From an uncultured Spirochaetia bacterium (GTDB lineage Bacteria > Oederibacteriota > PGYV01 > Palsa-1178): 64,000 nt of DNA. The stretch covers positions 34,823 to 98,822 of the forward strand of contig CAYUDX010000011.1 of the NCBI GenBank assembly GCA_964443355.1, given 5' to 3'. Positions within the stretch are counted from its first letter, which is position 1. Every line of letters starts with the position of its first letter. Below the pieces are notes generated by a model. It was not told the origin of the DNA. It was given only the letters and a program-made list of their open reading frames with translations, and made no database searches. Made by a program: the position numbers and the translations under genes. This document shows, one piece after another, positions 7,880 to 41,000 of this stretch.

Positions 7880-9091
7880 ATGAAAATAGCAATTGTAACG
7901 GACACATACAGGCCCAGGGTAAACGGAGTGGTCGCTTCGATAGACACTTTCGCGCATGAATACAGAAAGCTCGGGCATGAGGTGAAAATAATAGCCCCGG
8001 AATTTCCCGCGGACCAGAAGGATTTCAAGGACGCGGATAACGAGAAATACGTGATAAGGATAAAATCCCATTACCTGTTCTTCGACCCCGAGGACAGGCT
8101 GCCCGCGCCGTGGGAAGCCGCGGCCAAAAAAGTCATCAAAGAGGAGATAATCAACCATAAATTCGACATCATCCACACACAGACGCCGTTTACGCTCGGT
8201 ATTGAAGCAGTAAAATGGGCAAAACAGATGGACTGTCCGATCGTGCACACATACCATACGATGTTTGAGTCCTACGTGACCCATTACATTAAATTCCTGC
8301 CAAAGTCGTTCGCGTTATGGTTCTCCAAGGCTTTTTCCAAATGGTACTGCGATAAAATGAACCTGAACATAACGCCGTCGTCACAGATGCACGACCTGCT
8401 CGTGTCCTACAAGGTAAAGCCCCCGGTCGAGGTAAACCCCACCGGGATAAAGATAGAAAAATTCAAGACTTTCAACGGCAACGACTTCAGGAAAAAGAAC
8501 AACATACCGCTGGACACGGTCCTGTTCCTTTTTATGGGAAGGATAGGCCATGAGAAGAACATACCGTTCCTTTTTGACGTATTGAAAAAAGTAAAGGCCC
8601 TCATGCCCGGCAGGCAGGTCAAGCTCATGGTTGCGGGCAAAGGCCCGGCCGAGGATGCGGTAAAAGCCGCGGCAAAGGAAAAGGGCGTTGAGAACGACAT
8701 ACTCTGGTTCGGCTACTTTGAACCCCAGGACTGGGTCAATTGCTACGCGGCGGCAAATCTTTTTACATTCGCTTCCGTGACCGAGACGCAGGGTCTTGTC
8801 GTGACCGAGGCCATGGCGGTCGGGACCCCGGTGGTGGCCGTCGGGGAAATGGGCGTTGCAGAGGTGATGAAAGGCGACAAAGGCGGGATACTCGTGGACC
8901 TGAACGTGGACCATTTTGTCGATGCGGTGATGAAAATGCTCACCGACAGTCCGTTCTATGAAATGAAAAAGAACGAGGCCTTTGAATACGCAAAAGAATG
9001 GTCGGCGGAATCCATGGCCAAAAAGCTGCTTACCAAGTTTGAGAAAGTTATAGCGGATAAAAAGGCCGGAGTGAAAAATAATGCGGAATAA
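7880..9091 (+). CDS. GT4-family glycosyltransferase (glycolipid/polysaccharide synthesis)
   Basis: GT-B N-terminus MKIAIVTDTYRPRVNGV; the C-terminal EX7E-like region FASVTETQGLVVTEAMAVGTPVV; GGAGG ribosome-binding site. Confidence 0.75.
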   Translation: MKIAIVTDTYRPRVNGVVASIDTFAHEYRKLGHEVKIIAPEFPADQKDFKDADNEKYVIRIKSHYLFFDPEDRLPAPWEAAAKKVIKEEIINHKFDIIHTQTPFTLGIEAVKWAKQMDCPIVHTYHTMFESYVTHYIKFLPKSFALWFSKAFSKWYCDKMNLNITPSSQMHDLLVSYKVKPPVEVNPTGIKIEKFKTFNGNDFRKKNNIPLDTVLFLFMGRIGHEKNIPFLFDVLKKVKALMPGRQVKLMVAGKGPAEDAVKAAAKEKGVENDILWFGYFEPQDWVNCYAAANLFTFASVTETQGLVVTEAMAVGTPVVAVGEMGVAEVMKGDKGGILVDLNVDHFVDAVMKMLTDSPFYEMKKNEAFEYAKEWSAESMAKKLLTKFEKVIADKKAGVKNNAE

Positions 9092-9521
9092 AATTTTTGC
9101 GGCGGCAATCGCCCTGATAGTCGCGGCAACCGCGGGATGCGCCTCTTACAATGCCAAGAAAGTGAGATACATGGAGATCAGCGGCCGCGGATGCTACGTC
9201 TGCGAGAGAATGAACGGCGTAGTTGACGAAATATCCAGGGAATACGGCAACGAGGTGGATATTTCGACGTATGCCGAAACATCGGACACGGGAGCGGACC
9301 TTATAAAAAAATACAATATCACCAAATTTCCGTCCAACATAATGACGGATAACAAGGACAACGTTATTTTCAGGTATGACGGACTGCTTGACGTGACCGC
9401 CTTAAAGGAAATTTTAAGGACAAAAGGCATCGGGATCAAACCGAAGGATGTCACTGTTACGGCATCGCCCCTGGCCGCTCCGTCGGCTGTGACCTTTACA
9501 CCGGGGGCCGTCACAAAATGA
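9081..9521 (+). CDS. Thioredoxin-like lipoprotein (CxxC)
   Basis: Signal/lipobox AATAGC and redox motif CYVC; overlaps the GT4 stop. Confidence 0.55.
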   Translation: MRNKIFAAAIALIVAATAGCASYNAKKVRYMEISGRGCYVCERMNGVVDEISREYGNEVDISTYAETSDTGADLIKKYNITKFPSNIMTDNKDNVIFRYDGLLDVTALKEILRTKGIGIKPKDVTVTASPLAAPSAVTFTPGAVTK

Positions 9522-9871
9522 AGCGATCCATAGGGGTAATAATTGCGGCAATTGCAACAGCTTTTGTTATCGGTTGTACGCCCCAAAAAGAGGCGGCAAA
9601 GGTGACCATAACCGAATATTACCATCCGTCGTGTGAAACATGCATTTCCATGATGCCGGTTGTCGATGCCGTGCAGGCCGAATTCAAGGGCAGTGTGCTG
9701 ATTGTCAGGGTGAGCCTTGACACAAAAGAAGGCGCAAAAAAAGCCTCGGCATTATCCATTGCCACCATACCGATGTTCGTTTTTTCCGACTTTCAGGGCG
9801 TTGATTATTACCGCCATGACGGCAAAATGACGAAAGAAGAAATCGAAAATATTATCAGGATAAAATTGTAA
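9518..9871 (+). CDS. Thioredoxin-like lipoprotein (CxxC), paralog of the preceding gene
   Basis: Signal/lipobox FVIGC, motif CETC; ATGA overlap with the upstream paralog. Confidence 0.55.
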   Translation: MKRSIGVIIAAIATAFVIGCTPQKEAAKVTITEYYHPSCETCISMMPVVDAVQAEFKGSVLIVRVSLDTKEGAKKASALSIATIPMFVFSDFQGVDYYRHDGKMTKEEIENIIRIKL

Positions 9872-10236: not shown

Positions 10237-10364
10237 ATGAAATCATATTTTCACATCATGAAAACCAAACCCGCTTGTTAAAAATTTTGTAAGGTTTTTC
10301 CTTGAAAAAATATGGGCTTATGATATATTTATGTCATAAAGGGAGCAATTGTTAGAGGTGATAA

Positions 10365-13300
10365 GTGCGCAAATTTATACGTGCGGGAACAGCGGTAAAA
10401 TTAATATTTAACTCTTTGTTTATTGCTGTTTTTGTGTTTTTTGCATCCTCGCAACTTTACGCGGACACACCCACCGACACTCCGACAGACATGCAAACCG
10501 CCACTGAGACCCCCACCTTCACCCCGGTTACCGCTGCATATTTTGATATTGCCGCGCCGTCCCAGGCCGGGGCTTCCGCTCCTTTTTTGATAACAGTGAC
10601 CGCAAGGACCGCCCTTGGCGCGGTGGCGAATAATTATACCGGAGTTGTGACCTTCGGCACCGGAGCGTTCCTTTTTGTCATGCCTGACGATTATGGTTTC
10701 ACGGCTTCCGACAACGGTTCTCACGCGTTCCTGGTCCAGATAATGTCGGCCGGCGACGAGGTGGTGAACGTAAGCGACATAGACAACCCGTCGGTCTCAA
10801 GCTCGGCCATAGTAACCATCCTTCCGGCCGCCGCGTCGTATTATACTTTGAACGCGCCGTCATCGGTAAAGGCTGGAGTCCTTTTTTCATTGACTCTTAC
10901 CGCCAAGGATTCCTATAACAATGTAGTGACCAATTACAACGGCACGGCTTCATTCAATTCTTCGGATACATCGGCGGTCCTGCCTCCGGATACGACTTTT
11001 ATCAATGACGACGCGGGGAAAAAAGTCCTTGCCGTCACGCTTAAGACAAAAGGCACACAGACAATATCGGCCAAGGACCTCAATGGCTCGTCGATAAACG
11101 GTTCATCGAACGCGATTAACGTCACGTGCGGGACAATATCGTCCTTTAACGTTAGTGCGCCGGCCGTGGCAAACCCGAATACAAGCTTTAATTTCGCAAT
11201 AAGCGCGATGGACAGTTTTTCCAATGTCGCCGACAACTACACTGGCACAGTGCATTTCACTTCAAGCGATGTTGCCGCGGTCCTGCCGGCCAATTACACC
11301 TTCCAGGCGGGGGATTACGGCAACAGGGTGTTCTCCGCAACGCTCGTAAATTCAGGGACTCAGACAATAACCGTCGGCGACGCGACGGCCGCCACCATAA
11401 CCGGGATTTCATCCGGCATAAACGTCAACCAGGTTTTTAACCCTTATGCCCAGCCGCTTATGCTTACCTCTTACATTCCCGACGCGGCCATATATCAGTT
11501 TGTTTATTTAAAGGTAATGACCGCCGCCAATATCCAGATACCCGACAATGCGTATCTTGAATATGACGTCTTCATGCCTTCATATAACGCGGATTTTTAT
11601 ACCGGGACGGACATGGACGGGACCGTTTTCGGAGATATGAGGGACTATGGTCAGGCTACCCAGAGCTACATAATCGACCAGAACGGAATAAGGTGCCATC
11701 CGTCGATGGACCTTTCGCAATATGCGTCAGGCCAGTGGTATCACAGGAAATTCAACATAGCCGCTCTGGGCGGATCGACTTACAATGAGCTTGACCTGGC
11801 GCAGGATACCGGAAATTCCGGCGCGAACGGCGCGCCTTCAAACCAGGCGGGCACTTTTAATTCTTTTTTTAACAACATTGTATTTACCAATTCGGGCGGA
11901 ACGGTGCTCACAAATTTCTTTTCAAGCAACAACACCATACCTTACAGCGGCACCGTGAGCCTTAACGGAAGCGTGGCCGGAAACAGGGGACAGGGTGGGA
12001 TAAACGCGGGTCCGACGCCTCCGGCCCCCGTAAATAATTATCTTTACATAATAAAGGACATGTCGCTTTCTTCGGCTCCGGCAGGGTCTGTCATAGCAGA
12101 TGGAGCTCATTCGCTGACGGTCACGGCCTTTTTATTCGGTCCTACCAACGCGGCAGTTCCGTGGACACTGGCCGATTTCAGTTCGGACAGGGCGGCTGAT
12201 TCCATATATCCCGTGGTCGTAAGCGCGAACGCCAGGGCGGTCACCGGGACTGACGGCCTTGCAGGCGCTCGTATAACTTCGACGCAGTCGGGTCAGGCCA
12301 ATATAACGGTGAAATGCGCTCACCTCACAAAAATAATACCGGTAAATTTCATCGCCGGACCCGCCTCAAAAGTGAACATATCACCGGCCCAGGTAAATAC
12401 CGAAACCGGGGTTCAGGGGACAATGAGCGTGAGCCTTGAGGACTCGTTCGGGAATTTTTCCTCGACCTCAAAAAATATCACGTTAAGTTCGACTTCGTCA
12501 TCGATGAAATTTTCTTCCGACAATGGAAACACATGGCAGTCCGGCCTTGTAGTCGGAGGCACCGTGATAAACAACGTATTAATTGTGGACACTTCAGCCG
12601 GGACTTCAACCATTTCCGCCGTATCCGCGGGGCTCACTTCCGCGTCATGCACGGCCTATATAAACAACGCTCCCGCCTCGGCCATATCTATAACCCCGTC
12701 AAATCCGTCATCCAGAGCCGGTGTGCCGGTCACAATGACGGCGTGGGCCGTCGATTCGTCGGGTAACAACTCTTACTATACAAATACGGTCGCGTTTTTC
12801 TCGGCTTCGCCCACCATGATGTTCTCACAGGACGGGGTGAATTACTTTCAAAGCCTGATGATGAACATGAGCGACGGAAGGGCGGATTTTTACTGTTATG
12901 ACACAAAAGTGGGGTCAAATGTAACCGTTACCGCGCAGTCCTCGGGGCTTGCCGCAGGGACCGCGTATTTTACGACCATAGCCGGGAACGCGGTTATGCT
13001 GAACGGATATGCCAGTAATTATTCGGTACTGGCGGGGCAGTCGGTCACGATCACGGCTGTAGTTACAGACAGTTACGGAAATCCCGTCATGAATACTTTT
13101 GTGATTTTTACCGCGCAGGTGGAAGGCGGGTTGGGCGATTCGCTTTTGACGCCGGCAGGGAACTCCACCAACGCCTCGGGACAGGCGGCTGTCATATTCA
13201 GGACAAAGTCCACGTCGCCGGATATTAATTACGTGATAATGAATTCAAATCTTCTTCTGGGAAAAACAATAGCCATAAGCGGATCGGGCGCTGCGGCTTC

Positions 13301-15125
13301 CTACGCCTTTTCTCCGAGCCCGCTGGCCGCCGGCGCGGATCAGCCGACATCGTTGTTCGTAAACGCCAGGGATTCCGGGGGATTTAACGCGCCAGCGCCG
13401 GGCCACGGCGGTGTTTATGTTTCAGTTACTTATCCGGCGGGTTCGACAAATGTCTTCTTTTCGTCCGACTCCGGCAACAACTGGTACAACAACGTTACGG
13501 CGACACTGGACGCGTCCGGTTCGGCACAGTTGTTCGTAAAATCCCACATACCCGGGGCATATTCCGTTGTAGGCGCGGACATCAATTCCACAGGATCGCT
13601 CCTGCCTGCATCCACGACATTGACGGTTTCCACGGCTTATTATATATCCGTTTCCCCGGCTACGGCAGCTTCGGCCAATGCCGGCTCTACGATGCCGATA
13701 ACAGCCCAGATCGTGGACCAGAACGGGACTCCCGCGGCAATCGCCAATGTCCAGGTGAATTTTTCCACGAGCAACGGGTCTATCTCTCCGGTCACGGTAT
13801 ATACGGACGCCACAGGAAAGGCGGCCTCGACCCTTTCGCTCGCCATTGCCGCGTATGCCGCACAATCCGTAACGGTAAAATCCGTAAACCCGAATTCAAC
13901 CGCGGTTTCGGGGATAATAACATCGCAGCCGGTGCTTTCGTTCAGCATTGCAATACCGGCTTCGGCTTATATAAACACGCCGCTCCAGGCCGTGGTGAGG
14001 GTCAAGGACGCTTACGGCCAGACAATATCAAATTACACCGGGAAAATTCATTTCTCATCGCCTTCGCCCGCAACGCTTCCGTCAGACTATACGTTTGTCC
14101 CGGCTGACGGCGGAGTAAAATATTTTACATTTTCGTTATCGACGGCGGCTCCAATGTCGCAGTCAATAACGGCCGCCGACACGGCCAGCCCGTCGATAAA
14201 CGGGACAAGCAACATAATCCTGATGTATCTTAATCCCACTCCTTCGCCGAGCATTTCCCCGACCAAGACAATGACATTCACCAAAACGCCGACTCCCACA
14301 TTCACCAATACGCCTACCGTTACCCCGACGTCGACAAAAACAGCCACCCCGACAATCACAAGGACATGGTCGGCATCGCCCACGGGCACCCCTTCGTACA
14401 CTCCTACCATAACGCCGACATTTACGGGTACTCTTACATTTACCATAACCCCGACGGTCACGGAGTCTTTCACCATAACCCCGACCTCGACCATATCAAA
14501 GACGTTCACTGTTTCGCCGACTTACACGGTCACGCCGACGATAACGGAAACATGGACCGATTCGCCGACCTTTACGGTGACGCCAACCTCGACGGAAACT
14601 GAGACAGGCAGCCCGACATACACGGCGACCGATACTTTTACTTACTCGCCCACATCCACAATAACTCAGACCGTCACCGAAACGCTTACAGTGACCGACA
14701 CATACACATTTACGGCGACCGGGACTTGCACCACGACTTACACCGTGACACCATCGTTGACCGTCACACAGACGGCCAGCGCCACGCCTACCCTGACAAT
14801 GACGCTGACGCCTTCGGCGACCCCCACTCCATATTTCAACAGGGCGGTTGAAGGAGACTGCTATGTTTTCCCGCAGCCGGCATCGACGGCGCTTACCATA
14901 GTATATTCCTCCGATTCCCAGGCTGATATGACCGTTAAAATATACAACTCGGCGGGAATGCTTGCGGCATCGCTTGAGGCGAAAGCAGCGGTCAATGACT
15001 ATAATTATATCCAGGTAAATCTGTCGAGGTTCGCTCCGGGTGTGTATTTCTATGTTTTGACCGGTAAAAAGAGCTCCGGTGGAACCATGGATTTCGGCAT
15101 AAAGAAATTTATGGTGGCAAAATGA
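10365..15125 (+). CDS. Large secreted adhesin-like protein: signal peptide, repeated Ig-like domains, Thr/Pro-rich linker, C-terminal T9SS-type sorting domain (Por secretion tail-like)
   Basis: GTG start with an AGAGGTG ribosome-binding site; signal peptide; at least four ~90-aa repeats of the pattern NYTGTVHFTSSD..LP..YTF..D.G...F...L...GTQTI...D; a TP-rich linker; a C-terminal ~95 aa (YVFPQPAS...MTVKIYNSAGML...APGVYFYVL...KKFMVAK) resembling the T9SS CTD / FlgD-Ig fold. Confidence 0.75.
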   Translation: MRKFIRAGTAVKLIFNSLFIAVFVFFASSQLYADTPTDTPTDMQTATETPTFTPVTAAYFDIAAPSQAGASAPFLITVTARTALGAVANNYTGVVTFGTGAFLFVMPDDYGFTASDNGSHAFLVQIMSAGDEVVNVSDIDNPSVSSSAIVTILPAAASYYTLNAPSSVKAGVLFSLTLTAKDSYNNVVTNYNGTASFNSSDTSAVLPPDTTFINDDAGKKVLAVTLKTKGTQTISAKDLNGSSINGSSNAINVTCGTISSFNVSAPAVANPNTSFNFAISAMDSFSNVADNYTGTVHFTSSDVAAVLPANYTFQAGDYGNRVFSATLVNSGTQTITVGDATAATITGISSGINVNQVFNPYAQPLMLTSYIPDAAIYQFVYLKVMTAANIQIPDNAYLEYDVFMPSYNADFYTGTDMDGTVFGDMRDYGQATQSYIIDQNGIRCHPSMDLSQYASGQWYHRKFNIAALGGSTYNELDLAQDTGNSGANGAPSNQAGTFNSFFNNIVFTNSGGTVLTNFFSSNNTIPYSGTVSLNGSVAGNRGQGGINAGPTPPAPVNNYLYIIKDMSLSSAPAGSVIADGAHSLTVTAFLFGPTNAAVPWTLADFSSDRAADSIYPVVVSANARAVTGTDGLAGARITSTQSGQANITVKCAHLTKIIPVNFIAGPASKVNISPAQVNTETGVQGTMSVSLEDSFGNFSSTSKNITLSSTSSSMKFSSDNGNTWQSGLVVGGTVINNVLIVDTSAGTSTISAVSAGLTSASCTAYINNAPASAISITPSNPSSRAGVPVTMTAWAVDSSGNNSYYTNTVAFFSASPTMMFSQDGVNYFQSLMMNMSDGRADFYCYDTKVGSNVTVTAQSSGLAAGTAYFTTIAGNAVMLNGYASNYSVLAGQSVTITAVVTDSYGNPVMNTFVIFTAQVEGGLGDSLLTPAGNSTNASGQAAVIFRTKSTSPDINYVIMNSNLLLGKTIAISGSGAAASYAFSPSPLAAGADQPTSLFVNARDSGGFNAPAPGHGGVYVSVTYPAGSTNVFFSSDSGNNWYNNVTATLDASGSAQLFVKSHIPGAYSVVGADINSTGSLLPASTTLTVSTAYYISVSPATAASANAGSTMPITAQIVDQNGTPAAIANVQVNFSTSNGSISPVTVYTDATGKAASTLSLAIAAYAAQSVTVKSVNPNSTAVSGIITSQPVLSFSIAIPASAYINTPLQAVVRVKDAYGQTISNYTGKIHFSSPSPATLPSDYTFVPADGGVKYFTFSLSTAAPMSQSITAADTASPSINGTSNIILMYLNPTPSPSISPTKTMTFTKTPTPTFTNTPTVTPTSTKTATPTITRTWSASPTGTPSYTPTITPTFTGTLTFTITPTVTESFTITPTSTISKTFTVSPTYTVTPTITETWTDSPTFTVTPTSTETETGSPTYTATDTFTYSPTSTITQTVTETLTVTDTYTFTATGTCTTTYTVTPSLTVTQTASATPTLTMTLTPSATPTPYFNRAVEGDCYVFPQPASTALTIVYSSDSQADMTVKIYNSAGMLAASLEAKAAVNDYNYIQVNLSRFAPGVYFYVLTGKKSSGGTMDFGIKKFMVAK
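14231..14835 (+). repeat. Low-complexity Thr/Pro/Ser-rich linker (degenerate PT(x)T repeats) inside the large secreted protein
   Basis: Translation is ~200 aa of TPTxT-type repeats; the DNA is a degenerate ACNCCGAC-type repeat. Confidence 0.8.
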
Positions 15126-16366
15126 ACGCAACCGGCAAAAAGGCGTTATACCCCGGCGTCAGAGGCATCTTTTTTATCTTAATGCTTTTATATGCGTTTT
15201 TCTTGCCGGTGCCGGAGAGTCTTGCGGATATCAACGGGAGCGCCGGCATAATTTTTCCCGAGCTTGATTCCGGGGCCGGCGCCAGGGCGGCCGGCATGGG
15301 AGGCGCCTTTACGGCCGTGGCGGACGACGCGAGCGCGGCTTACTGGAATCCCGCGGGTTTGAGCCTTATAAAAAAGCCTGAAGTCATGATAACTTTCGAC
15401 AAGTGGTACCTGGATTCATTTTATCAGCATTTTATCGGGGCTTTTCCCGTTGGGACGGGGACGATAGGTGCAGACATATTTTACATGAATTACGGAGCGT
15501 TCGATATCAGGGATAATACCGGAATGCTTCTCGGCGGCACATTGAATCCTTACAACGCCGCTGGCACGCTCTCTTACGGTATTGGATTTGGAGGCAACTT
15601 GAGCCTTGGGCTTGGTCTTACATACGCCATACAGTCCATAGGTTCGTCCTCGGACAACGGGTTCGGATTTAACCTCGGTGCGCTGTTCAAATCGGATATC
15701 TTTTCGGCAGGCATATCGCTGAAAAACATGGGAGCAGGGGGTGGGTTTTCACTTCCGGCAGACCTCAGGGTGGGAGCGGCCGTGAATGTTTTCAGGAACA
15801 GGTCGAATTCGGTGCTTGTTTCCGCCGACGCCGCATTAATAGTCAACGACGCGCCCCAGGCCAGTCTCGGTGTGGAATATTCCCTGCTTAAGATATTTTC
15901 ATTGCGCGCGGGTTATACTTTTAAGTTCGACGATGCCAATGGCGGCATATTGGGCGGGCTCTCAGCCGGGGCGGGATTCTCAGCCGGGGATATCTTCTTT
16001 GATTATGCCGTGGTCCCTTTCGGGCAGCTTGGCCTGACGCAAAAAGCCGGGATGAATTTCGAGTTTGACCCGGTTAAATTCAACGCTGAAAAAGAAGCCG
16101 CAAAGGCCCCTTCGGCAAAAGTGGAACTGAAAGACATAATGGCGGAGGCCGGAACCCTTGAAAATAGCGGAAAACTTGAACAGGCAAAGGAAAAGTACCT
16201 GGAGATCATAGACTTTGATATCAATTACGCCGACGCATGGAAACGCCTCGGCGCCGTATATGTTAAGCAGGGCAAAAAGGTTGATGCCATAAATGCTTTT
16301 GAACGTTATCTTCTGATACGGCCCAACGATACGGCGGTCCGGAAATGGCTGGACAAAAACCAATAG
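15122..16366 (+). CDS. Outer-membrane β-barrel protein of the PorV/FadL-like family with a C-terminal TPR extension
   Basis: Signal peptide; motif GAGARAAGMGGAFTAVADDASAAYWNPAGL typical of PorV/UPF0164-type barrels; barrel ends in ...GMNFEF, followed by a ~95-aa TPR-like tail; ATGA overlap with the upstream T9SS-type cargo gene. Confidence 0.55.
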   Translation: MNATGKKALYPGVRGIFFILMLLYAFFLPVPESLADINGSAGIIFPELDSGAGARAAGMGGAFTAVADDASAAYWNPAGLSLIKKPEVMITFDKWYLDSFYQHFIGAFPVGTGTIGADIFYMNYGAFDIRDNTGMLLGGTLNPYNAAGTLSYGIGFGGNLSLGLGLTYAIQSIGSSSDNGFGFNLGALFKSDIFSAGISLKNMGAGGGFSLPADLRVGAAVNVFRNRSNSVLVSADAALIVNDAPQASLGVEYSLLKIFSLRAGYTFKFDDANGGILGGLSAGAGFSAGDIFFDYAVVPFGQLGLTQKAGMNFEFDPVKFNAEKEAAKAPSAKVELKDIMAEAGTLENSGKLEQAKEKYLEIIDFDINYADAWKRLGAVYVKQGKKVDAINAFERYLLIRPNDTAVRKWLDKNQ

Positions 16367-24975: not shown

Positions 24976-26874
24976 TTAGATTGCTTCGACGCCGGTTTCA
25001 CCGGTGGAAACCCTGAGGGCTTCCCTTGCGTCGAGTACGAATATTTTCCCGTCACCAACCTTGCCGGTCCTTAAGACGTCTTTCATTATGGCAAGCACGG
25101 GGGGGACATCCCAGTCATTTACTACGAGCTCTATCTTTGTCTTTGGAAGGAATGTGATTTTTGTGTCAACATCCTCGTCAGGGTCGATCTTGCCGTAGGT
25201 GCGGCCAAAACCCTTTACTTTTGTGATGGTCATGCCCTGGACAAGGGCTTCTTCCTTTAACACCGCCACAAGCACTCCGACCCTGTCCGGCCTGATCATG
25301 GCCGTTATCATCTTCATTGAATAATTCTTTTTTACTGTCGTTACCATTACATAGAGGAAGCTGATGAGCGCAAATCCTCCGGCAATGTAAAAGCATATCG
25401 CGGCTTCGGCTTTATTGTCGCTTGTGCCTGTGAGGTTAAGGTAAATAATCCCAACAAGCATAAGTATGTTCAGGAGAAGCCCGAGGCCCGGGACAATTCC
25501 GTGCTTCAAAATGTTGAAATCCTTGCGGTCCTTGAATGCAATTATCGTCCATACACAGACAAGGCCGTAAAGAACAAAAGTGCCGAAGTTTGAAGCGAGG
25601 GTAATCCCCGTCAATCCGACAACTGACTGGACTCCTATCGCGGCTATAATGCTGGAAATTACAACCAGCACCCAGATAGTAGTATGCGGAGTCTTGTTCT
25701 TTGCGTGCAGAAAGCTTAAAAAATCGGGAAGCTCACGGTCGGCAGCCATGCCGTTGGTAACGCGGACAGCGGTGTTCATGCAGCTTAAAGTCGTGCCGAT
25801 GACGGCGATTGCCACGGTTATGGCCATTGTTATCATCAAACCGAAACCGATGCCGCCAAGAAGATGGTCGCCGATTAGCCTGCTCATGTCGCCGATAGGG
25901 GCGGCGGATGCCACCATCGCGTCCATTCCCGTAACGGTCTTGGTTATGGCGGCGGTTGTAGCCGTTGCCGCGGTTGTTACGGTGCCGGTCAGTTTTTCGC
26001 TGACCATAAGGTTTGCCGCGAAATACTCGAACAGGTAAGCCAGGACGCCCTGCACGAAAAGGGCGATGATTATGGCTTTTGGTATGTTCTTTTCCGGCTC
26101 TTTTGTCTCCGCCGACATTGCAGTGGCGCTTTCAAAACCAACCAGTATCAATATGGCGATCGTGGACTGAACAAGAACAGCCTTTATGTTGTGAAACTTG
26201 ACTATGTCGAAACTCCCCGAAAACGCCCAGCTTGTCGCGTGTTCGGGATTGGCTATCCTGTACCAGATAGCGAGTCCGCTGAAAATCGCGAGAGCGACCC
26301 ACTGGATTATGTTTATCCAGACGTTTGTTACAGTGGAACCCTGAACGCCTTTGTACGCCACATAACCGACCGCAAAGGCGAAGACCACGCCGATTATGGT
26401 AAGCTCGGGAACAGAGAGCGTCTTTCCCGTTATCGAATTATAGATGTACCCTATAAGCGTGGCCATCATGGCGACCATGACGCCGGGATAAACCCAGTAG
26501 AACAGGTGTGCGGCCCATCCTGTCACAAGCTTTGAAAGCCTTGCCAACGATGTCGGGCCGGCGCGCTTTTCCTTTCTCGAATCAAGAAAAGCTTTTTCCG
26601 CGAAGTAAGCGCAGCTTGCGAATCCCGCTTCCGGATATATCCTGGCAAGTTCAGCGTAGGAAAAAGCCGTTAAAAAGGCAAGAACAAGGGCCACGAGTAT
26701 GCCCGCCCACATATCGGCCGCAGCCGTTGCTCCGCTGGGATCTGTAGCGGCGGCCTGGAGCTGGTACGTTATCCAGAGAAAGGCTCCTGGGGCGATCAGG
26801 GCCATAGCGTTCATGGCGGCGCCCATCAGGCCGAGCGTAGGGACTATCTTTACCGAAGAATCATTGTTAGCCAT
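24976..26874 (-). CDS. APC-superfamily permease (amino acid/polyamine/organocation type) with a C-terminal PII-like domain (fusion)
   Basis: About 12 TM helices; APC signatures AELARIYPEAG and GFESATAMSAETKEPEKNIPKAI; last ~110 aa are PII-like (MITAMIRPDRVG...GFGRTYG...[22 protein letters not shown]); no stop codon or ribosome-binding site between the domains. Confidence 0.7.
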   Translation of the reverse strand: MANNDSSVKIVPTLGLMGAAMNAMALIAPGAFLWITYQLQAAATDPSGATAAADMWAGILVALVLAFLTAFSYAELARIYPEAGFASCAYFAEKAFLDSRKEKRAGPTSLARLSKLVTGWAAHLFYWVYPGVMVAMMATLIGYIYNSITGKTLSVPELTIIGVVFAFAVGYVAYKGVQGSTVTNVWINIIQWVALAIFSGLAIWYRIANPEHATSWAFSGSFDIVKFHNIKAVLVQSTIAILILVGFESATAMSAETKEPEKNIPKAIIIALFVQGVLAYLFEYFAANLMVSEKLTGTVTTAATATTAAITKTVTGMDAMVASAAPIGDMSRLIGDHLLGGIGFGLMITMAITVAIAVIGTTLSCMNTAVRVTNGMAADRELPDFLSFLHAKNKTPHTTIWVLVVISSIIAAIGVQSVVGLTGITLASNFGTFVLYGLVCVWTIIAFKDRKDFNILKHGIVPGLGLLLNILMLVGIIYLNLTGTSDNKAEAAICFYIAGGFALISFLYVMVTTVKKNYSMKMITAMIRPDRVGVLVAVLKEEALVQGMTITKVKGFGRTYGKIDPDEDVDTKITFLPKTKIELVVNDWDVPPVLAIMKDVLRTGKVGDGKIFVLDAREALRVSTGETGVEAI

Positions 26875-34653: not shown

Positions 34654-34695
34654 GCGCCATATAACGAAAAAAAAGGGAAAATGCGTGGAGGAAAA

Positions 34696-35586
34696 ATGAA
34701 GAAGTATAAATTTGTTTCCGTCTTATTTATTTTGATGTTATTATTTGCCGCGGCAGTATACCCGGCAAAGTCTCCGAAAGCTAAGAAAACCCCAAAACCC
34801 ACCGTTTCAAGCCTCACAAGGCAGTTAAACGAGGCAAAAGACACCATAGAAACATTATCGGCGCAAAAGGTGTCGCTTACGGCAAAAGTCAGCCAGATGG
34901 ACATTGACATGAAAAAGCTCAGGAAGGATTCGGACGCAAAATTTTACCTTGCTCTTGGCTGCGGCCTGGGGACGACAATAATATGCCTTGCCATAATAAT
35001 AATTTTGACCGGAGCAAAAAATGCGGCGGCCGGAACGACGCAAAAAAAGAAAAAATTCGCCGGGCCCGACAGGGAAAGCCATTTTGAGGAGCTTGAATAC
35101 AACGTACTGGACGACTGGCACAACATATGGTTCCATCCTGAAAAGGTGAACAACGAGCTTTATATGGACCTTGCCAACCATTTTCCTGAACTTCATGAGA
35201 AAATTGAAAAATGGAAATATGACATGGCCAAAAGGAACGACCTTGTGGACGGAATGAACAGGAACATATCGGTTAAATTCAAGGAAATAGAGGCAACCCC
35301 CTCAATATATCTGCTTGCGCTCGGGGAGAGCGAGTTTTTTATCGACGAGAACGAAATACACGTCGGGACTTTTGTATGCGCGCATGCGAAGCCGGGATAT
35401 ACGACGACAAGGGACATGATGCAGGCTTTTTATAATGAAGTGATCAAGATGATGGAGATAGATTATTCCGAGATAAAGGCCATTTCAGTGGAGATAGCGG
35501 ATTTAAAAACCGCGGTTGACATAGAGATACGGAAAATAAAGCATCACAGGAAACTGCCGGGTGATTGCAAATTTATCAGGGCATAA
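34696..35586 (+). CDS. Hypothetical membrane protein (signal/TM segments, coiled coil, unknown C-terminal domain)
   Basis: GGAGG ribosome-binding site; two hydrophobic segments; 42 nt after the σ54 activator gene. Confidence 0.5.
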   Translation: MKKYKFVSVLFILMLLFAAAVYPAKSPKAKKTPKPTVSSLTRQLNEAKDTIETLSAQKVSLTAKVSQMDIDMKKLRKDSDAKFYLALGCGLGTTIICLAIIIILTGAKNAAAGTTQKKKKFAGPDRESHFEELEYNVLDDWHNIWFHPEKVNNELYMDLANHFPELHEKIEKWKYDMAKRNDLVDGMNRNISVKFKEIEATPSIYLLALGESEFFIDENEIHVGTFVCAHAKPGYTTTRDMMQAFYNEVIKMMEIDYSEIKAISVEIADLKTAVDIEIRKIKHHRKLPGDCKFIRA

Positions 35587-36177: not shown

Positions 36178-37092
36178 ATGAAAAAAATATTGATGATCGT
36201 TTTGCTGTGCGCACCGTCGGTCTTATTCGGGGTTTCTTCGGCACCGTTTTTAAGGTTTAATTACAATGCGGCGTCCCAGGGATCGGGAGGGGCGGGGTGC
36301 GCGCGATTCGGGGATATTTCGGGGATAAGCATAAACCCGGCTTCCACCAACGGCGCAATGAACGCGTCCGCGGCGTTTTCATACGGCGACATAGGCGAGT
36401 TCGATATAAGCGCCACGCAAACGAACGTGCTTGTGCCCGTGACCGACTACGGGAATTTTGGAGCGTCATTCATATATTCGAAGCAGGGAATCGACGACCC
36501 GGCGGATCCCGGTTCAAAAATCGACCGGAACGACAGGCTTGCCCTGTTGAATTATTCTTTCATGACCGATGATTCCATCGGGTTTGGCGCAAATTTAAAA
36601 TATGCGTGGTCCGATGTGGCGGGAACAACGGCTTCTTTCCTGGCGGCGGATATCGGCGCATTGTATTTATTCGACAAGGACCTTTCTTTTGGGCTGGCGG
36701 CAAGGGATATCGGGGCATTGGTCTCGTCGGGCGGGAACGGATACGGGTTAAAAGAGGAAGGACTTGATTCTTCGGTCATGGCAGGGGTAAATTACTACAT
36801 GCTATATGATAACGAGAACAAGTTATCGTTATCCATGGACCTTGGTTTTGCGATTCCTTTCGAGCGGGCCGTAATTTCAGAGGGGATGGAATACGGTTAT
36901 AACTCATTATTCATTATAAGGGCAGGGGACTACGAGAGCGTGAGCGGCGAGAATTATTTGAGCGTGGGGCTCGGGATGGACCACGATATCGCCGGAATTA
37001 ATTTTAAATTCGATTATACTTACAGCCCAAGGATTTCCGGTTCGTCCAATTTTAGCGACGATCAATTTATTACAATAACATCAATTTTTTAA
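36178..37092 (+). CDS. Outer-membrane β-barrel protein (distant PorV/FadL-like superfamily), hypothetical
   Basis: AGGAGG ribosome-binding site, signal peptide, G-rich N-terminal ...INPAST motif, β-rich, C-terminal ...ITSIF. Confidence 0.5.
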   Translation: MKKILMIVLLCAPSVLFGVSSAPFLRFNYNAASQGSGGAGCARFGDISGISINPASTNGAMNASAAFSYGDIGEFDISATQTNVLVPVTDYGNFGASFIYSKQGIDDPADPGSKIDRNDRLALLNYSFMTDDSIGFGANLKYAWSDVAGTTASFLAADIGALYLFDKDLSFGLAARDIGALVSSGGNGYGLKEEGLDSSVMAGVNYYMLYDNENKLSLSMDLGFAIPFERAVISEGMEYGYNSLFIIRAGDYESVSGENYLSVGLGMDHDIAGINFKFDYTYSPRISGSSNFSDDQFITITSIF

Positions 37093-38047: not shown

Positions 38048-41000
38048 ATGAAAATAAACGATATAACCGCCCTGAACAATCTCCAGAAAAAATCGCTCAA
38101 GAAACTTCTGCCCGATAAACCGATGATAGCGGTCGGAATGGGCACCTGCGGAATCGGCAACGGCGCGGACGAATTATTTATGGCCATAGGCAAGGCCATC
38201 AAGACGAAAAAAGCCGATATTATTCTCAATACCGTCGGTTGTTTCGGCTTTTGCGCCAATGAGCCCCTTGTCAATGTTTACATTCCCGGGCAGCCGCTGG
38301 TAATACTCAATAAAGTCGCAGCAAAGGACGCAACATCCATAGTAGAAGCAGTTTCAAAGGGGAATATGCCTCTGAAAAAGGCCATGTGTAAAATAGAGCA
38401 ATGGGACTTTTTGACCTCTAAGATAGAATACGGCAAAGGCCTGCCGCAGGTCCCGGTATGGGACGAGATCCCGTTCTTTAAGGGGCAGAAAAAAATGGTC
38501 CTTCGCGACGCCGGGCTAATCAATCCCGAGGATATCGAGGAATACATCGCGGTCGGAGGTTATCAGGCGCTCCTGAAATCATTGACGACAATGAAGCCGG
38601 ACGGGGTGCTCGAGGAAATGAAAAAATCAAAGCTCCGCGGACGCGGGGGCGCGGGTTTCCCGGTCGGAAGGAAATGGGAGCTCATGAAGAACGTGAAAGG
38701 CGACCAGAAATACGTTGTCTGCAACGCCGACGAGGGCGATCCGGGCGCTTACATGAACAGGAATGAGATAGAAAGCGACCCGCACGCCCTTATAGAAGGC
38801 ATGATAATAGGCGCATATGTAATGGGCGCGTCAAAGGGGATAGTTTACATAAGGGCCGAATATCCGCTTGCAGTGGAACGACTGAAAAAAGCCATCAATC
38901 AGGCCAAAGACAACGGATTTTTGGGCGAGAATATCTTCGGTTCGGGTTTTAATTTCGACCTTGATTATGTGGAAGGAGCCGGGGCGTTCGTTTGCGGAGA
39001 GGAAACCGCTCTGATGGCCTCAATAGAAGGCAAGGCCGGCAGGTCGATGCCCAGGCCGCCTTTTCCGGCCCAGAAAGGCATCGATGGTAAGCCCACCAAC
39101 ATCAATAACGTCGAAACGTGGGAAAACGTTCCCCTTATTCTCAACCGTGGCGGTGATTTTTTCGCGCAGACGGGTACGGAAAATTCATCGGGCACAAAGG
39201 TTTTTTCGCTGGTCGGGAAGATAAGGAACACCGGCCTTGTGGAACTGCCGCTCGGCACCCCGCTTGAAAAGATAATATATGAGATGGGCGAAGGCGCCGG
39301 CAAAAACAAGAAGATACGCGCCGTCCAGACCGGAGGCCCTTCCGGCGGATGCATACCGGTGGAGAGTTTCAACACTCCGGTCGATTACGAGTCATTGAAC
39401 GCGCTGGGCGCTATAATGGGTTCCGGTGGAATGGTCGTCATGGACCAGGATAACTGCATGGTGGACGTCGCCAGGTATTTCGTGGAATTCACATCCTCCG
39501 AGTCGTGCGGCAAATGCACCTCGTGCAGGGAAGGGCTTTCACAGTCCATGGAAATATTGAACAGGATAACCAAAGGCAAGGGAACGCTCGAGGATATTGA
39601 AACCCTTGAGAAACTCGCGATGGTGATAAAGGATTCTTCGCTGTGCGGGCTCGGACAGACCAGTGCGAACCCGGTTCTTACTACACTGCGTTACTTCAGG
39701 GACGAATACAAGGCGCACATCATAGAAAAAAGATGCAAAGCAGGCGTCTGCGAAAACCTCTTCATGGCGCTTTGCGAGAATTCATGCCCCATGCATATGA
39801 ACATACCCGCATACCTGCAGATGCTCAAGGAAGGCAGGATAGAGGACGCCTTTGAATCAACCCTGCGGGACAATCCGCTTCCCGGGACGCTCGGCCGCAT
39901 ATGCCACTTTCACTGCAAAATGCGCTGCAGAAGGGATACGGTCGATGAATCTGTGGCGCAGGGCGAGATACACCGTTACCTCGCGGATACCATTTATAAG
40001 ATGGGAAAGGAAAAACAGCTTTATACAAGGCTGATAAAGGAAAAACTCCCGGCGACCGGAAAGAAGATCGCCATAATAGGCGCAGGCCCGGCAGGATTGA
40101 CCGCCGCGTATTACCTGGTGCGGCTCGGACACACGGTTACGGTCTATGATTCGCATCCCCTGGCAGGCGGCATTCTTTATTACGGTATCCCGGCCTACAG
40201 GTTGCCAAAAGACGTGCTGGCCAAGGAAATCGAGCTCATAAAAAAGCTGGGCGTAAAATTCGTCATGAACACGATGGTTGGGACGGACATTTCGTTCAAG
40301 ACCATAGCAAAGGAAAACGATTCGGTTATAATTTCCGTGGGGGCGCAGAAAGACGCGTCGCTTGACATACCTGGAGCGGAGCTGAAAGGAGTCCATCCTG
40401 GATATGAATTCCTTGAGGACCACGCGAAAGGCAAGAAACTAAGGATAGGAAAAAAGGTGGCCATAATCGGCGCGGGCAATGTATCGATAGACGCGGCAAG
40501 GACCGCGCTGAGGCTCGGCTCTGAGGTCACAATAGTTTACCGCAGGGACCGCAATGAAATGCCGGCAAACCTTCATGAGATAGAGGATGCCGAGGCTGAA
40601 AAGATAAATTTCCGCCTGATGTGCGGCCCGACCAGGATACTCGGGGACGCTAAAGGGAACGTCAAAGGCCTCGAGGTTGAAAAGATGAAATTCGGCTCCA
40701 TTGACAGGTCGGGAAGGCGCAAACCCGTGGGAACGGGGGCGTGCGAAATAATCGACTGCGACACTGTCATACTCGCGGTCGGCGAGAAAGTGGATTCAAG
40801 TTTTGCCAAAGACCTGGGTATAGAGACGAACAAGGATGCGACTATCAAGACCAATCCTTTCACATACAGGACTTCAAACAGTTCTTTTTACGCGATAGGC
40901 GACGCCGTGACCGGACCGGCGACCGCGGCAGAGGCCATGGGAATAGCGAAAACAACGGCCGAAGCTGTCGACTTTGACCTTATGAAGGAACACAGGTTCT

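What the first reader, a model, noticed from the sequence alone, without database searches (positions are those of the whole stretch)
10365..16366. T9SS-type cargo adhesin translationally coupled to a PorV-like β-barrel that carries a TPR tail
The 1586-aa protein ends in a ~95-aa domain (YVFPQPAS…MTVKIYNSAGML…PGVYFYVL…KKFMVAK) that matches the architecture of T9SS C-terminal sorting domains. The next gene overlaps it by ATGA and encodes a PorV/UPF0164-like outer-membrane barrel (GARAAGMGGAFTAVADDASAAYWNPAGL). PorV is the shuttle for CTD cargo in Bacteroidetes, so a cargo–shuttle gene pair in one transcript would be unusual. The barrel also has a C-terminal soluble TPR extension after its terminal aromatic residue (…GMNFEF), which is not typical of PorV. 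The pair may be a dedicated cargo/shuttle module in a non-Bacteroidetes lineage.
Basis: partly seen in the sequence, partly recalled or inferred. Interest (0 to 1): 0.6.

Follow-up and report, generated by a model that had tools for sequence, protein, structure and literature searches.

The report
Surface adhesin with its own PorV-like anchor
A giant Ig-repeat surface protein ending in a type IX-style sorting domain is co-translated with its own PorV-like outer-membrane barrel carrying a periplasmic TPR tail, a recurring two-gene cassette in Goldbacteria and related uncultured phyla that extends the one-cargo-one-barrel rule, so far known for type B signals, to type A signals.

Summary
Gene A (10365-15125, 1586 aa) has a signal peptide, Ig-like repeats, a 225-aa Thr/Pro stalk and a C-terminal domain that passes the curated type A CTD thresholds. 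The model of that domain best matches the PorU CTD. Gene B (15122-16366, 414 aa) overlaps A by ATGA. It passes the PorV/PorQ family threshold but not the PorV or PorQ ortholog models. Its model best matches PorV, and it has a conserved near-consensus TPR tail.

The source is Goldbacteria-like. The pair recurs in different genomic neighbourhoods. In one genome the passenger is replaced while stalk, CTD and barrel-TPR are kept, so the cassette is CTD plus barrel.

In 1.28 Mb from about 20 phyla, 74 of 103 PorV-family barrels directly follow a gene with a CTD-like end (about 1 expected by chance). Some of these are canonical porU-porV.

The best reading is a cognate barrel that binds and holds the CTD, as in PorU-PorV, PorZ-PorQ and SprB-SprF, with the tail acting like a fused PorE.

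I could not test whether the genome has a T9SS translocon. New variant of a known kind; interest 0.55.

The parts
10302..10329 (+). Promoter-like site (TTGAAA, 16 nt, TG-TATATT) 36 nt upstream of the cargo start. Candidate promoter of the two-gene operon.
   Evidence: Consensus scan, 10 of 12 matches with extended -10 TG. Consensus match only, not shown to function.
10355..10361 (+). Shine-Dalgarno-like AGAGGTG ahead of the GTG start of the cargo gene
   Evidence: Read directly from the sequence
10365..15125 (+). Cargo gene: 1586-aa secreted Ig-repeat adhesin-like protein (stop codon included)
   Evidence: ORF; Big_1 x5 and Por_Secre_tail; about 12 full-length orthologs of 1550-2170 aa
10365..10463 (+). 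Sec signal peptide of the cargo (aa 1-33, predicted cleavage LYA|D)
   Evidence: Read from the sequence; the N-terminal hydrophobic leader is conserved in orthologs L003, L006, L007, L008. No signal-peptide predictor was available.
10545..14159 (+). Passenger (aa 61-1265): Ig-like repeat regions flanking a ~220-aa central domain (aa 351-570) with no family match
   Evidence: Big_1/Invasin_D3 hits; no match in PDB sequences; homologous along its full length in L007 (45%) but unrelated in L004
14160..14834 (+). Thr/Pro-rich stalk (aa 1266-1490; 39% Thr, 12% Pro), not a DNA tandem repeat
   Evidence: Composition; no tandem repeats found; conserved together with the CTD when the passenger is swapped
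14835..15122 (+). Type A T9SS-style C-terminal domain (aa 1491-1586), a seven-strand beta-sandwich
   Evidence: PF18962 38.2 bits and TIGR04183 32.5 bits when scanned alone; AF2 pLDDT 94 with 7 strands; best fold matches are the PorU CTD 6ZA2 (TM 0.73) and the mirolase CTD 8QB1
15122..15125 (+). ATGA start/stop overlap coupling the two genes
   Evidence: Sequence; the same overlap in L003, L006, L090 and the P0055 contig; gaps of 5-20 nt in L004, L007, L008, L089
15122..16366 (+). Barrel-TPR gene: 414-aa PorV/PorQ-family outer-membrane protein (stop codon included)
   Evidence: NF033709 141.5 bits against a cutoff of 90; orthologs at 36-100% identity
15122..15226 (+). Signal peptide of the barrel protein (aa 1-35, predicted cleavage SLA|D)
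   Evidence: Read from the sequence; helix 11-27 in the model; aligned hydrophobic leaders in 40 homologs
15227..16069 (+). N-terminal hatch-like segment (aa ~47-82) and FadL/PorV-type beta-barrel (aa ~87-316) ending in the aromatic motif GMNFEF
   Evidence: AF2 pLDDT 84; Foldseek best matches are F. johnsoniae PorV 8GL6_F and 6H3I_F; profile against PDB sequences hits PorV at E 1.7e-22
16115..16363 (+). C-terminal TPR tail (aa 332-414, about two near-consensus TPR units plus a capping helix), inferred periplasmic
   Evidence: TPR_1/TPR_2; helices 332-413; matches consensus TPR proteins; conserved in 40 homologs and in 76 of the top 150 cluster representatives

Best explanation
This is a two-gene surface-display cassette.

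Gene A encodes a Sec-exported giant Ig-repeat protein (adhesin or coat-like). Its passenger sits on a Thr/Pro-rich stalk that ends in a type A T9SS-style CTD. Gene B is translated in a fixed ratio with A through the ATGA overlap. It encodes a private PorV/PorQ-family FadL-fold outer-membrane barrel.

The barrel recognises the CTD of its partner at the outer face of the membrane. It keeps hold of it as a non-covalent anchor, or at least as a dedicated collector. This is how PorV holds the uncleaved CTD of PorU, PorQ holds PorZ, and PorP/SprF barrels hold type B cargo such as SprB.

The C-terminal TPR tail lies in the periplasm. It supplies in cis the kind of protein-docking module that PorE (TPR ... 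OmpA_C) supplies in trans to PorP in Bacteroidota. It would tie the barrel to a periplasmic partner, which could be the translocon, a wall-associated protein, or the incoming cargo.

Shown: the identity and fold of both domains, the coupling, conservation of the pair, and passenger swapping.
Inferred: CTD-barrel binding, retention of the CTD, the periplasmic location and role of the tail, and the route across the outer membrane (presumed to be a SprA-type translocon encoded elsewhere).
For: 1. Domain identities hold by sequence and by fold. The CTD model's best PDB match is the CTD of PorU, the one known to stay uncleaved and bound to PorV (PMC10202324).

2. The pair is the conserved unit. A 1560-1700-aa CTD protein followed by barrel-TPR occurs in L003, L004, L006, L007 and L008. 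Flanks are unrelated in L004, L007 and L008. It also occurs beside barrels only 31-37% identical (L089, L090, the P0055 contig).

3. Passenger swap. The window and HGW-Goldbacteria-1 cargos share only the stalk and CTD (aa 1347-1586); their passengers are unrelated. Their barrels are orthologous at 42%. L090 has an NHL/SBBP-type passenger with the same CTD.

4. Tight coupling by ATGA overlap or gaps of at most 20 nt. This fits stoichiometric production, as argued for type B cognate shuttles (PMC12618676).

5. No other ORF in about 170 kb of Goldbacteria DNA carries this CTD.

6. Broad survey. 74 of 103 PorV-family barrels directly follow a gene with a CTD-like end, against about 0.95 expected by chance. 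Barrel-adjacent CTDs form a sequence class distinct from unpaired CTDs: 89 of 114 nearest neighbours share the class after removing body homologs, against 61 +/- 6 under permutation.

7. Sister barrels carry an OmpA peptidoglycan-binding domain at the same C-terminal position. This places such tails in the periplasm and parallels PorE (PMC9143113).
Against: - No direct evidence of CTD-barrel contact.
- Whether the genome has SprA, PorKLMN or PorU is unknown. None are in the 64-kb window. The literature places T9SS in the FCB group only (PMC9127263, PMC11205867), so the export step is a gap.
- Retention versus cleavage of the CTD cannot be read from sequence.
- The paired-versus-unpaired CTD class signal could partly reflect taxonomy.
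- The iterated CTD HMM reaches beyond curated thresholds. Three tested cluster representatives (L071, L073, L063) had no Pfam CTD hit.
- DSSP gives 15-16 strand segments, so the strand number (14 expected) is not settled.
Confidence: 0.6

Rival explanations
1. Autonomous, T9SS-independent export. The barrel-TPR protein is both translocator and anchor. The periplasmic TPR captures the cargo and the FadL-type barrel, perhaps with BAM, moves it to the surface, as Slam/T11SS or two-partner systems do. The CTD-barrel pair would then be a minimal system that predates or bypasses the T9SS.
For: - The lineage (Goldbacteria) and many pair-bearing relatives (Elusimicrobiota, FCPU426, Coatesbacteria, Lindowbacteria) lie outside the FCB group, to which the T9SS is assigned in the literature (PMC9127263, PMC11205867).
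- No paper in the library reports T9SS there.
- No T9SS core gene is in the window or in the flanks of eight related loci, and no SprA-sized ORF is in any locus.
- TPR plus a small barrel encoded next to its cargo matches the logic of Slam (my own knowledge of T11SS).
Against: - T9SS genes are normally scattered, so their absence from about 250 kb says little.
- A hatch-plugged FadL-type barrel has no known protein-conducting activity.
- The CTD is a stable folded beta-sandwich, and folded export in T9SS needs the 36-strand SprA pore (PMC9143113).
- The same gene arrangement is common in FCB lineages that do have T9SS, including true porU-porV.
- There is no DUF560/Slam or POTRA match.
Confidence: 0.2
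2. Ordinary T9SS cargo next to the organism's general PorV shuttle. B serves all type A cargo and is recycled. Its position after A is incidental or only co-regulated.
For: In model Bacteroidota all type A CTDs use one PorV (PMC12618676). B's nearest solved structure is PorV.
Against: - B fails the PorV equivalog model (51 bits against 250).
- The genome has further paralogs: 36178-37092 in the window and two in tandem in Goldbacteria locus L019.
- A general shuttle would be made in excess rather than 1:1 with one 1586-aa protein (PMC12618676).
- The pair persists through passenger swaps and in unrelated neighbourhoods.
- Paired CTDs form their own sequence class.
Confidence: 0.1
3. A divergent attachment-complex pair. 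A is a PorU- or PorZ-like processing component held by its barrel, rather than an adhesin.
For: porU sits directly upstream of porV in five surveyed loci (NF033707, 529 bits). The CTD model is closest to the PorU CTD. NCBIfam lists putative PorU2/PorV2 families.
Against: - A has no C25 peptidase or PorZ propeller match. The PorU and PorZ models touch only its CTD at 13.7 and 15.6 bits.
- The body of A is Big_1 Ig repeats plus a Thr/Pro stalk.
- The passenger is freely replaced by TIG/Big_3 or NHL-type bodies. That does not fit a conserved enzyme.
Confidence: 0.04
4. B is a FadL-type channel for hydrophobic compounds, unrelated in function to A. The adjacency is a chance or regulatory accident.
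For: A weak Toluene_X/FadL Pfam match (28.9 bits, just below the GA of 29.7). FadL and TodX are among the fold matches.
Against: - The family-level match is to PorV/PorQ, well above cutoff, and PorV ranks above FadL in fold and sequence searches.
- The adjacency is about 80-fold above chance across phyla.
Confidence: 0.02

Closest known systems
PorV (F. johnsoniae / P. gingivalis), the general type A CTD shuttle of the T9SS
   Same: Same family-level HMM (NF033709). It is the nearest solved fold (8GL6_F, 6H3I_F) and the nearest sequence in the PDB. The partner carries a type A CTD.
   Different: Not an ortholog (fails NF033710). It is encoded 1:1 with a single cargo rather than serving all cargo. 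It has a C-terminal TPR tail. The lineage lies outside the FCB group. Association with SprA is unknown.
PorU-PorV and PorZ-PorQ retained-CTD complexes of the T9SS attachment complex
   Same: A PorV/PorQ-family barrel permanently holds the uncleaved type A CTD of one specific partner. porU-porV are adjacent genes in the same order. This CTD's best fold match is the PorU CTD.
   Different: The partner here is an Ig-repeat adhesin-like protein with a swappable passenger, not a sortase or LPS carrier. CTD retention is not shown here.
Type B CTD cargo with cognate PorP/SprF barrels and PorE (SprB-SprF; PG1035-PorP-PorE; Fjoh_3952-3951-3950)
   Same: A large adhesin gene is followed immediately by its own FadL-family barrel gene. 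Production is stoichiometric and the barrel anchors the cargo. A TPR/OmpA periplasmic component gives static anchoring (PMC9143113, PMC12618676).
   Different: The CTD here is type A (TIGR04183), not type B (TIGR04131). The barrel is PorV/PorQ family, not PorP/SprF (no PF11751 hit). The TPR is fused to the barrel instead of sitting on a separate PorE lipoprotein.
Slam / type XI secretion (DUF560 barrel with periplasmic TPR, encoded next to its surface cargo)
   Same: A small outer-membrane barrel plus a periplasmic TPR domain in one polypeptide, encoded next to a dedicated surface cargo (my own knowledge).
   Different: No sequence relationship (no DUF560 hit). The domain order is reversed (TPR is N-terminal in Slam). 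Slam cargo are lipoproteins without a CTD.
NCBIfam 'PorU2/PorV2' putative sorting pair (NF052324, NF052325)
   Same: A curated hint that extra PorU/PorV-like pairs exist. B gives a weak partial hit to PorV2 (41 bits).
   Different: B is far below the PorV2 cutoff (325), and A has no PorU2 match.

Membership tests
T9SS type A C-terminal sorting domain (TIGR04183 / PF18962) | Sequence match above the curated threshold | tested here: met
   PF18962 at 31.0 bits (GA 27) and TIGR04183 at 25.2 bits (cutoff 23) in the full protein; 38.2 and 32.5 bits for the isolated domain
T9SS type A C-terminal sorting domain (TIGR04183 / PF18962) | Located at the extreme C-terminus of a protein with an N-terminal Sec signal peptide | tested here: met
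   The domain ends at the last residue. The leader MRKF...SSQLYA|D is read from the sequence and conserved in orthologs. No dedicated signal-peptide predictor was run.
T9SS type A C-terminal sorting domain (TIGR04183 / PF18962) | Seven-strand Ig-like beta-sandwich fold | tested here: met
   AF2 model pLDDT 94 with seven strands. Best PDB matches are the PorU CTD 6ZA2 (TM 0.73, rmsd 2.6) and the mirolase CTD 8QB1.
T9SS type A C-terminal sorting domain (TIGR04183 / PF18962) | [quoted passage not shown] | not testable with these tools
   Needs the whole genome and experiments. No core T9SS gene is in the window.
PorV/PorQ family (NF033709) | Sequence match above the curated family threshold | tested here: met
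   141.5 bits against a cutoff of 90, residues 46-315 covering profile positions 5-326 of 326
PorV/PorQ family (NF033709) | FadL-type outer-membrane barrel with an N-terminal hatch, closest to PorV | tested here: met
   AF2 pLDDT 84. Foldseek best matches are 8GL6_F (E 2e-14) and 6H3I_F, ahead of FadL and TodX. The exact strand number is not settled (15-16 DSSP segments).
PorV/PorQ family (NF033709) | Binds the CTD of a partner protein at the cell surface | not testable with these tools
Only genetic linkage supports binding.
PorV proper (NF033710) or PorQ proper (NF033711) | Score above the equivalog cutoff | tested here: not met
   PorV 51.3 bits against 250; PorQ 65.1 against 220; PorV2 41.1 against 325
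Type B CTD / PorP-SprF cognate system | Cargo carries a type B CTD (TIGR04131) and the barrel is PorP/SprF family (PF11751) | tested here: not met
   No TIGR04131 hit at E<=1. CHU_C reaches only 15.6-20.9 bits (GA 27). There is no PF11751 hit for B.
Type B CTD / PorP-SprF cognate system | Cognate barrel encoded immediately downstream of a large adhesin, with an associated TPR/OmpA periplasmic module | tested here: met
   ATGA overlap. The TPR tail is fused. OmpA tails occur in sister barrels. This is a resemblance in how it works, not family membership.
Slam / T11SS | DUF560 barrel with an N-terminal TPR domain | tested here: not met
   No DUF560 match at E<=1, and the TPR is C-terminal
Complete T9SS in the host genome | Presence of sprA, porK/L/M/N (gldK-N), porU, porZ and porT | not testable with these tools
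   Only 64 kb of a 228-kb contig is available. None of these genes is present there or in +/-10 kb around eight related pairs.

The most novel reading that the evidence does not exclude
In Goldbacteria, Elusimicrobiota and allied non-FCB phyla, the CTD + PorV-family barrel pair is a self-sufficient outer-membrane display system that works without SprA or PorKLMN. It would be a minimal 'proto-T9SS' from which the Bacteroidota machine recruited its signal and shuttle. The fused TPR or OmpA tails would stand in for PorE.
Probability: 0.2. Interest if true: 0.85.

Novelty: new variant of a known kind. Interest (0 to 1): 0.55.

Why it matters
The current model, built on two Bacteroidota, holds that every type A CTD uses a single recycled PorV and that only type B signals have private barrels. 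This locus and its relatives show type A-style CTDs paired one-to-one with private PorV-family barrels. The barrels often have periplasmic TPR or OmpA tails fused on, and the pairs occur across some twenty phyla, including lineages where no T9SS has been described.

This gives a compact, portable [stalk-CTD]+[barrel] cassette that accepts different passengers. Such a cassette is attractive for surface display.

It also makes two questions testable. What is the minimal unit that recognises a CTD? And did the CTD-barrel pair precede the T9SS translocon?

Tried and rejected
1. Co-folding the CTD with the barrel. An unpaired MAFFT alignment misplaced the CTD fragments.

2. Searching the 5.8-billion-protein set with the CTD profile, to see whether other enzyme classes in this lineage carry the same CTD. 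It returned only 25 short contig-end fragments, so it was uninformative.

3. Literature searches for T9SS in Goldbacteria or Elusimicrobia found nothing relevant.

4. Looking for SprA-sized ORFs in all fetched loci found none. This is weak evidence, because T9SS genes are scattered.

5. The '182-aa CTD protein' upstream of an identical barrel in L002 looked like a deletion variant. It is the cargo gene cut by the contig end.

6. The upstream GT4 glycosyltransferase and two thioredoxin-like lipoproteins were considered as parts of the module. They were rejected because they are syntenic only in close relatives (L003, L006) and absent beside the pair in L004, L007 and L008.

7. The raw 57/80 adjacency count was first read as 'cargo'. 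It was then corrected, because the neighbours are mixed: PorU sortases, M6-like proteases, a 17-member unknown family and giant adhesins.

8. Total hit counts from the exhaustive profile search are inflated by multi-TPR proteins. Only the architectures of the top 150 were used.


Full report
**Observation.** The two ORFs are exactly as described: A at 10365..15125 (+, GTG, 1586 aa) and B at 15122..16366 (+, ATG, 414 aa). They are joined by an ATGA start/stop overlap. A GAGGTG Shine-Dalgarno lies 4 nt before the GTG. A promoter-like site with an extended -10 lies at 10302-10329. The public gene call for A (P0146, 1544 aa) starts at Met43 and drops the signal peptide. Orthologs keep an N-terminal hydrophobic leader, so the longer ORF is preferred.

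**What the two proteins are.**
- The last ~95 residues of A pass both curated type A CTD models. PF18962 scores 31.0 bits against a GA of 27, and 38.2 in isolation. TIGR04183 scores 25.2 against 23, and 32.5 in isolation. No type B model matches.
- An AlphaFold model of the CTD (pLDDT 94) is a seven-strand sandwich. Its best PDB matches are the CTD of P. gingivalis PorU (6ZA2, TM 0.73, rmsd 2.6 Å, 25% identity) and the T. forsythia mirolase CTD.
- The body of A holds Big_1/invasin-type Ig repeats and a central ~220-aa domain with no family match. A 225-aa stretch with 39% Thr and 12% Pro precedes the CTD.
- B passes the NCBIfam PorV/PorQ family model (141.5 bits against 90). It fails the ortholog-level models for PorV (51 against 250), PorQ (65 against 220) and PorV2 (41 against 325).
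- The model of B (pLDDT 84) shows a signal helix, short hatch-like helices, a beta-barrel over ~87-314, a disordered linker and a helical TPR bundle over 332-413.
- The best PDB fold matches for B are F. johnsoniae PorV in the SprA complexes (8GL6_F, 6H3I_F), ahead of FadL and TodX. A family profile also finds PorV by sequence (E 1.7e-22), and the tail matches consensus TPR proteins.

**Organism and surroundings.** Named relatives of B come from Candidatus Goldiibacteriota. The neighbourhood is housekeeping:
- aminotransferases, a GT4 glycosyltransferase and two thioredoxin-like lipoproteins upstream;
- glutamate synthase, ammonium transporters with P-II, GS-III and a sigma-54 activator downstream;
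- then [FeFe]-hydrogenase clusters and their maturases.

No T9SS core gene is in the 64 kb. A second, tail-less PorV-family barrel stands alone at 36178-37092.

**The pair is the conserved unit.**
- Contexts of five homologs at 41-65% identity all show a 1560-1700-aa CTD protein immediately followed by barrel-TPR. L003 and L006 are syntenic with the window. L004, L007 and L008 have unrelated flanks.
- Junctions are ATGA overlaps or gaps of at most ~20 nt.
- Barrels only 31-37% identical show the same arrangement. The upstream genes encode 1128, 1058 and 1522 aa. The two with DNA available end in a CTD recognised by a narrow HMM built from Goldbacteria CTDs alone (E 6e-20 and 1.5e-23).
- The window cargo and the HGW-Goldbacteria-1 cargo are similar only across the Thr/Pro stalk and CTD (aa 1347-1586). 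Their ~1300-aa passengers are unrelated (best E 0.058). Their barrels are orthologous.
- The L007 cargo is homologous throughout (45%). L090 has an NHL/SBBP-type passenger.
- The functional cassette is therefore [stalk + CTD] + [barrel-TPR], with an exchangeable passenger.
- In about 170 kb of Goldbacteria DNA, no other ORF carries this CTD.

**How unusual is it?**
- A scan of species-representative genomes returned 80 loci with PorV-family barrels from roughly twenty phyla. These include FCB-group lineages (Ignavibacteria, Chlorobiales, Cytophagia, Cloacimonadota, Latescibacteria, Zixibacteria, KSB1, Gemmatimonadota). They also include lineages outside that group (Elusimicrobiota, FCPU426, Coatesbacteria, Lindowbacteria, Stahlbacteria, Eisenbacteria).
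- I used an iterated CTD HMM and a barrel HMM over 1.28 Mb. Of 103 barrel ORFs, 74 are directly preceded on the same strand by an ORF whose exact C-terminus is CTD-like. About 0.95 would be expected from the background density.
- The neighbours are mixed. Five are true PorU sortases (NF033707, 529 bits), which is the canonical porU-porV pair. Five are M6-like metalloproteases. Seventeen form an unannotated ~1050-1160-aa family in FCB phyla. Many are giant fn3, Kelch or S-layer-like proteins in Elusimicrobiota, FCPU426 and KSB1.
- Caveats: the loci were selected for having barrels, and the iterated HMM reaches beyond curated thresholds. Three tested cluster representatives had no Pfam CTD hit.
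- Barrel-adjacent CTDs are also a distinguishable sequence class. Their nearest neighbour from another locus shares the paired or unpaired state in 100 of 114 cases. The figure is 89 of 114 after excluding neighbours with homologous bodies. Label permutation gives 61 ± 6, and none of 2000 permutations reached the observed value. Taxonomic structure may contribute to this signal.

**The TPR tail.**
- The tail is conserved in all 40 aligned homologs, and the unit is duplicated in two of them.
- Fourteen of the 103 surveyed barrels carry it. They include Coatesbacteria and Elusimicrobiota, typically with very large cargo (median 1586 aa against 912 aa for other barrels).
- In an exhaustive search of 1.84 billion cluster representatives, 76 of the best 150 match barrel and TPR colinearly. 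Another 27 have a barrel plus further TPR stretches.
- Sister barrels carry an OmpA peptidoglycan-binding domain at the same C-terminal position. Both ends of an outer-membrane barrel face the periplasm (established knowledge). Together these place the tail in the periplasm.
- TPR and OmpA_C are the end domains of PorE. PorE binds the PorP barrel and is encoded in operons with type B cargo and their cognate barrels (PMC9143113, PMC12618676). Here that function appears to be fused onto the barrel.

**Mechanism.**
- The best-supported reading is a cognate CTD-barrel display cassette. A is exported by Sec and crosses the outer membrane. Its CTD is then captured and held by B, which is made in a fixed ratio with it. 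The tail ties B to a periplasmic partner.
- Published precedents are the retained CTDs of PorU on PorV and PorZ on PorQ, and type B cargo on PorP/SprF (PMC10202324, PMC9143113, PMC12618676).
- Shown here: domain identities, coupling, pair conservation and passenger swapping.
- Inferred: binding, CTD retention, the role of the tail and the export route.
- The main rival (0.2) is that the pair is autonomous and needs no T9SS. The lineage lies outside the group where T9SS is described (PMC9127263, PMC11205867), and I found no core genes. Against this, T9SS genes are normally scattered, a hatch-plugged FadL barrel is not known to conduct proteins, and the same arrangement coexists with T9SS in FCB phyla.
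- Three other readings are disfavoured, for the reasons given under rival explanations: a general PorV shuttle (0.1), a divergent PorU/PorZ-type component (0.04) and an unrelated FadL transporter (0.02).

**Comparison and novelty.**
- It works like the PorP/SprF-type B-PorE design, but it is built from type A CTD and PorV/PorQ-family parts with the periplasmic module fused on.
- It is a member of the type A CTD family and of the PorV/PorQ family. It is not PorV, PorQ, PorP/SprF or Slam.
- The latest experimental paper states that type A CTDs all rely on one PorV (PMC12618676). No paper in the searchable library describes private PorV-family barrels for type A cargo, or any T9SS parts in Goldbacteria or Elusimicrobia. 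NCBIfam's 'PorU2/PorV2' names suggest curators have seen related pairs.
- I rate it a new variant of a known kind, with interest 0.55.

**Limits.** I could not examine the rest of the genome for the translocon, could not co-fold the CTD with the barrel, and could not fix the strand count from DSSP alone.

Noticed in passing
window 36178-37092 (+): A second, tail-less PorV/PorQ-family barrel (304 aa). It scores 85 bits against NF033709, just under the cutoff of 90, and my barrel HMM gives E 7.5e-19. It has no CTD-bearing neighbour. Its upstream gene (34681-35586, 301 aa) has no family match.
   Followed up: partly
window 10365-10490: The public gene call for the cargo (P0146, 1544 aa) starts at Met43 and lacks the signal peptide. 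The GTG at 10365 with its GAGGTG Shine-Dalgarno restores a leader that orthologs also have.
   Followed up: yes
window 24976-26874 (-): A 631-aa protein combines an N-terminal amino-acid/APC-type transporter region (aa ~52-480) with a C-terminal P-II nitrogen-regulator domain (aa 519-631). It sits between two amt genes in a nitrogen-assimilation cluster with GOGAT, GS-III and a NifA-like sigma-54 activator.
   Followed up: no
window 38048-41203 (+): A 1051-aa fusion of a NuoF-like flavoprotein (aa 160-558) with a glutamate-synthase-small-subunit-like NAD(P)H oxidoreductase (aa ~525-1045). It lies next to HoxE/NuoE-like and [FeFe]-hydrogenase genes. A second NuoE/NuoF/HydA set and the HydE/F/G maturases follow at 45.6-55.7 kb.
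   Followed up: no
window 9081-9871 (+); also L003 4039-4820 and L006 4208-4651: Two small thioredoxin-fold proteins with lipoprotein-like leaders and a 103-aa ORF lie between a GT4 glycosyltransferase and the cargo gene. They are syntenic only in close relatives and absent beside the pair elsewhere.
   Followed up: partly
L071 2540-6022, L076 6544-9984, L083 755-4195, L058 6423-9581, L055 6669-9908 and 12 more loci: A 17-member family of ~1050-1160-aa proteins with a CTD-like end always sits directly upstream of a PorV-family barrel. It occurs in Ignavibacteria, Chlorobiales, Cytophagia, Marinimicrobia, Gemmatimonadota and Stahlbacteria. It has no Pfam or NCBIfam match at all.
   Followed up: partly
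L012, L028, L038, L054 (6564-9899), L074: An M6-like metalloprotease with a CTD is encoded directly upstream of a PorV-family barrel in five loci. It partly matches NF052323, 'T9SS-dependent M6-like inactivated metalloprotease'.
   Followed up: partly
L060 6327-9989: In this Elusimicrobia locus the barrel-paired CTD protein has a segment matching the Kustd1514 anammox S-layer glycoprotein family. This hints that some paired cargos are surface-coat proteins.
   Followed up: no
L019 1333-4840: This Goldiibacteriota locus has two PorV-family barrels in tandem (703 aa with a ~370-aa TPR tail, then 447 aa). A CTD protein (545 aa) lies 2.3 kb downstream and is not followed by a recognisable barrel.
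   Followed up: partly
L016 6821-13562; L088 9983-14371: In a few loci a CTD protein follows the barrel, either instead of or as well as preceding it. The gene order within the pair is therefore not absolute.
   Followed up: no
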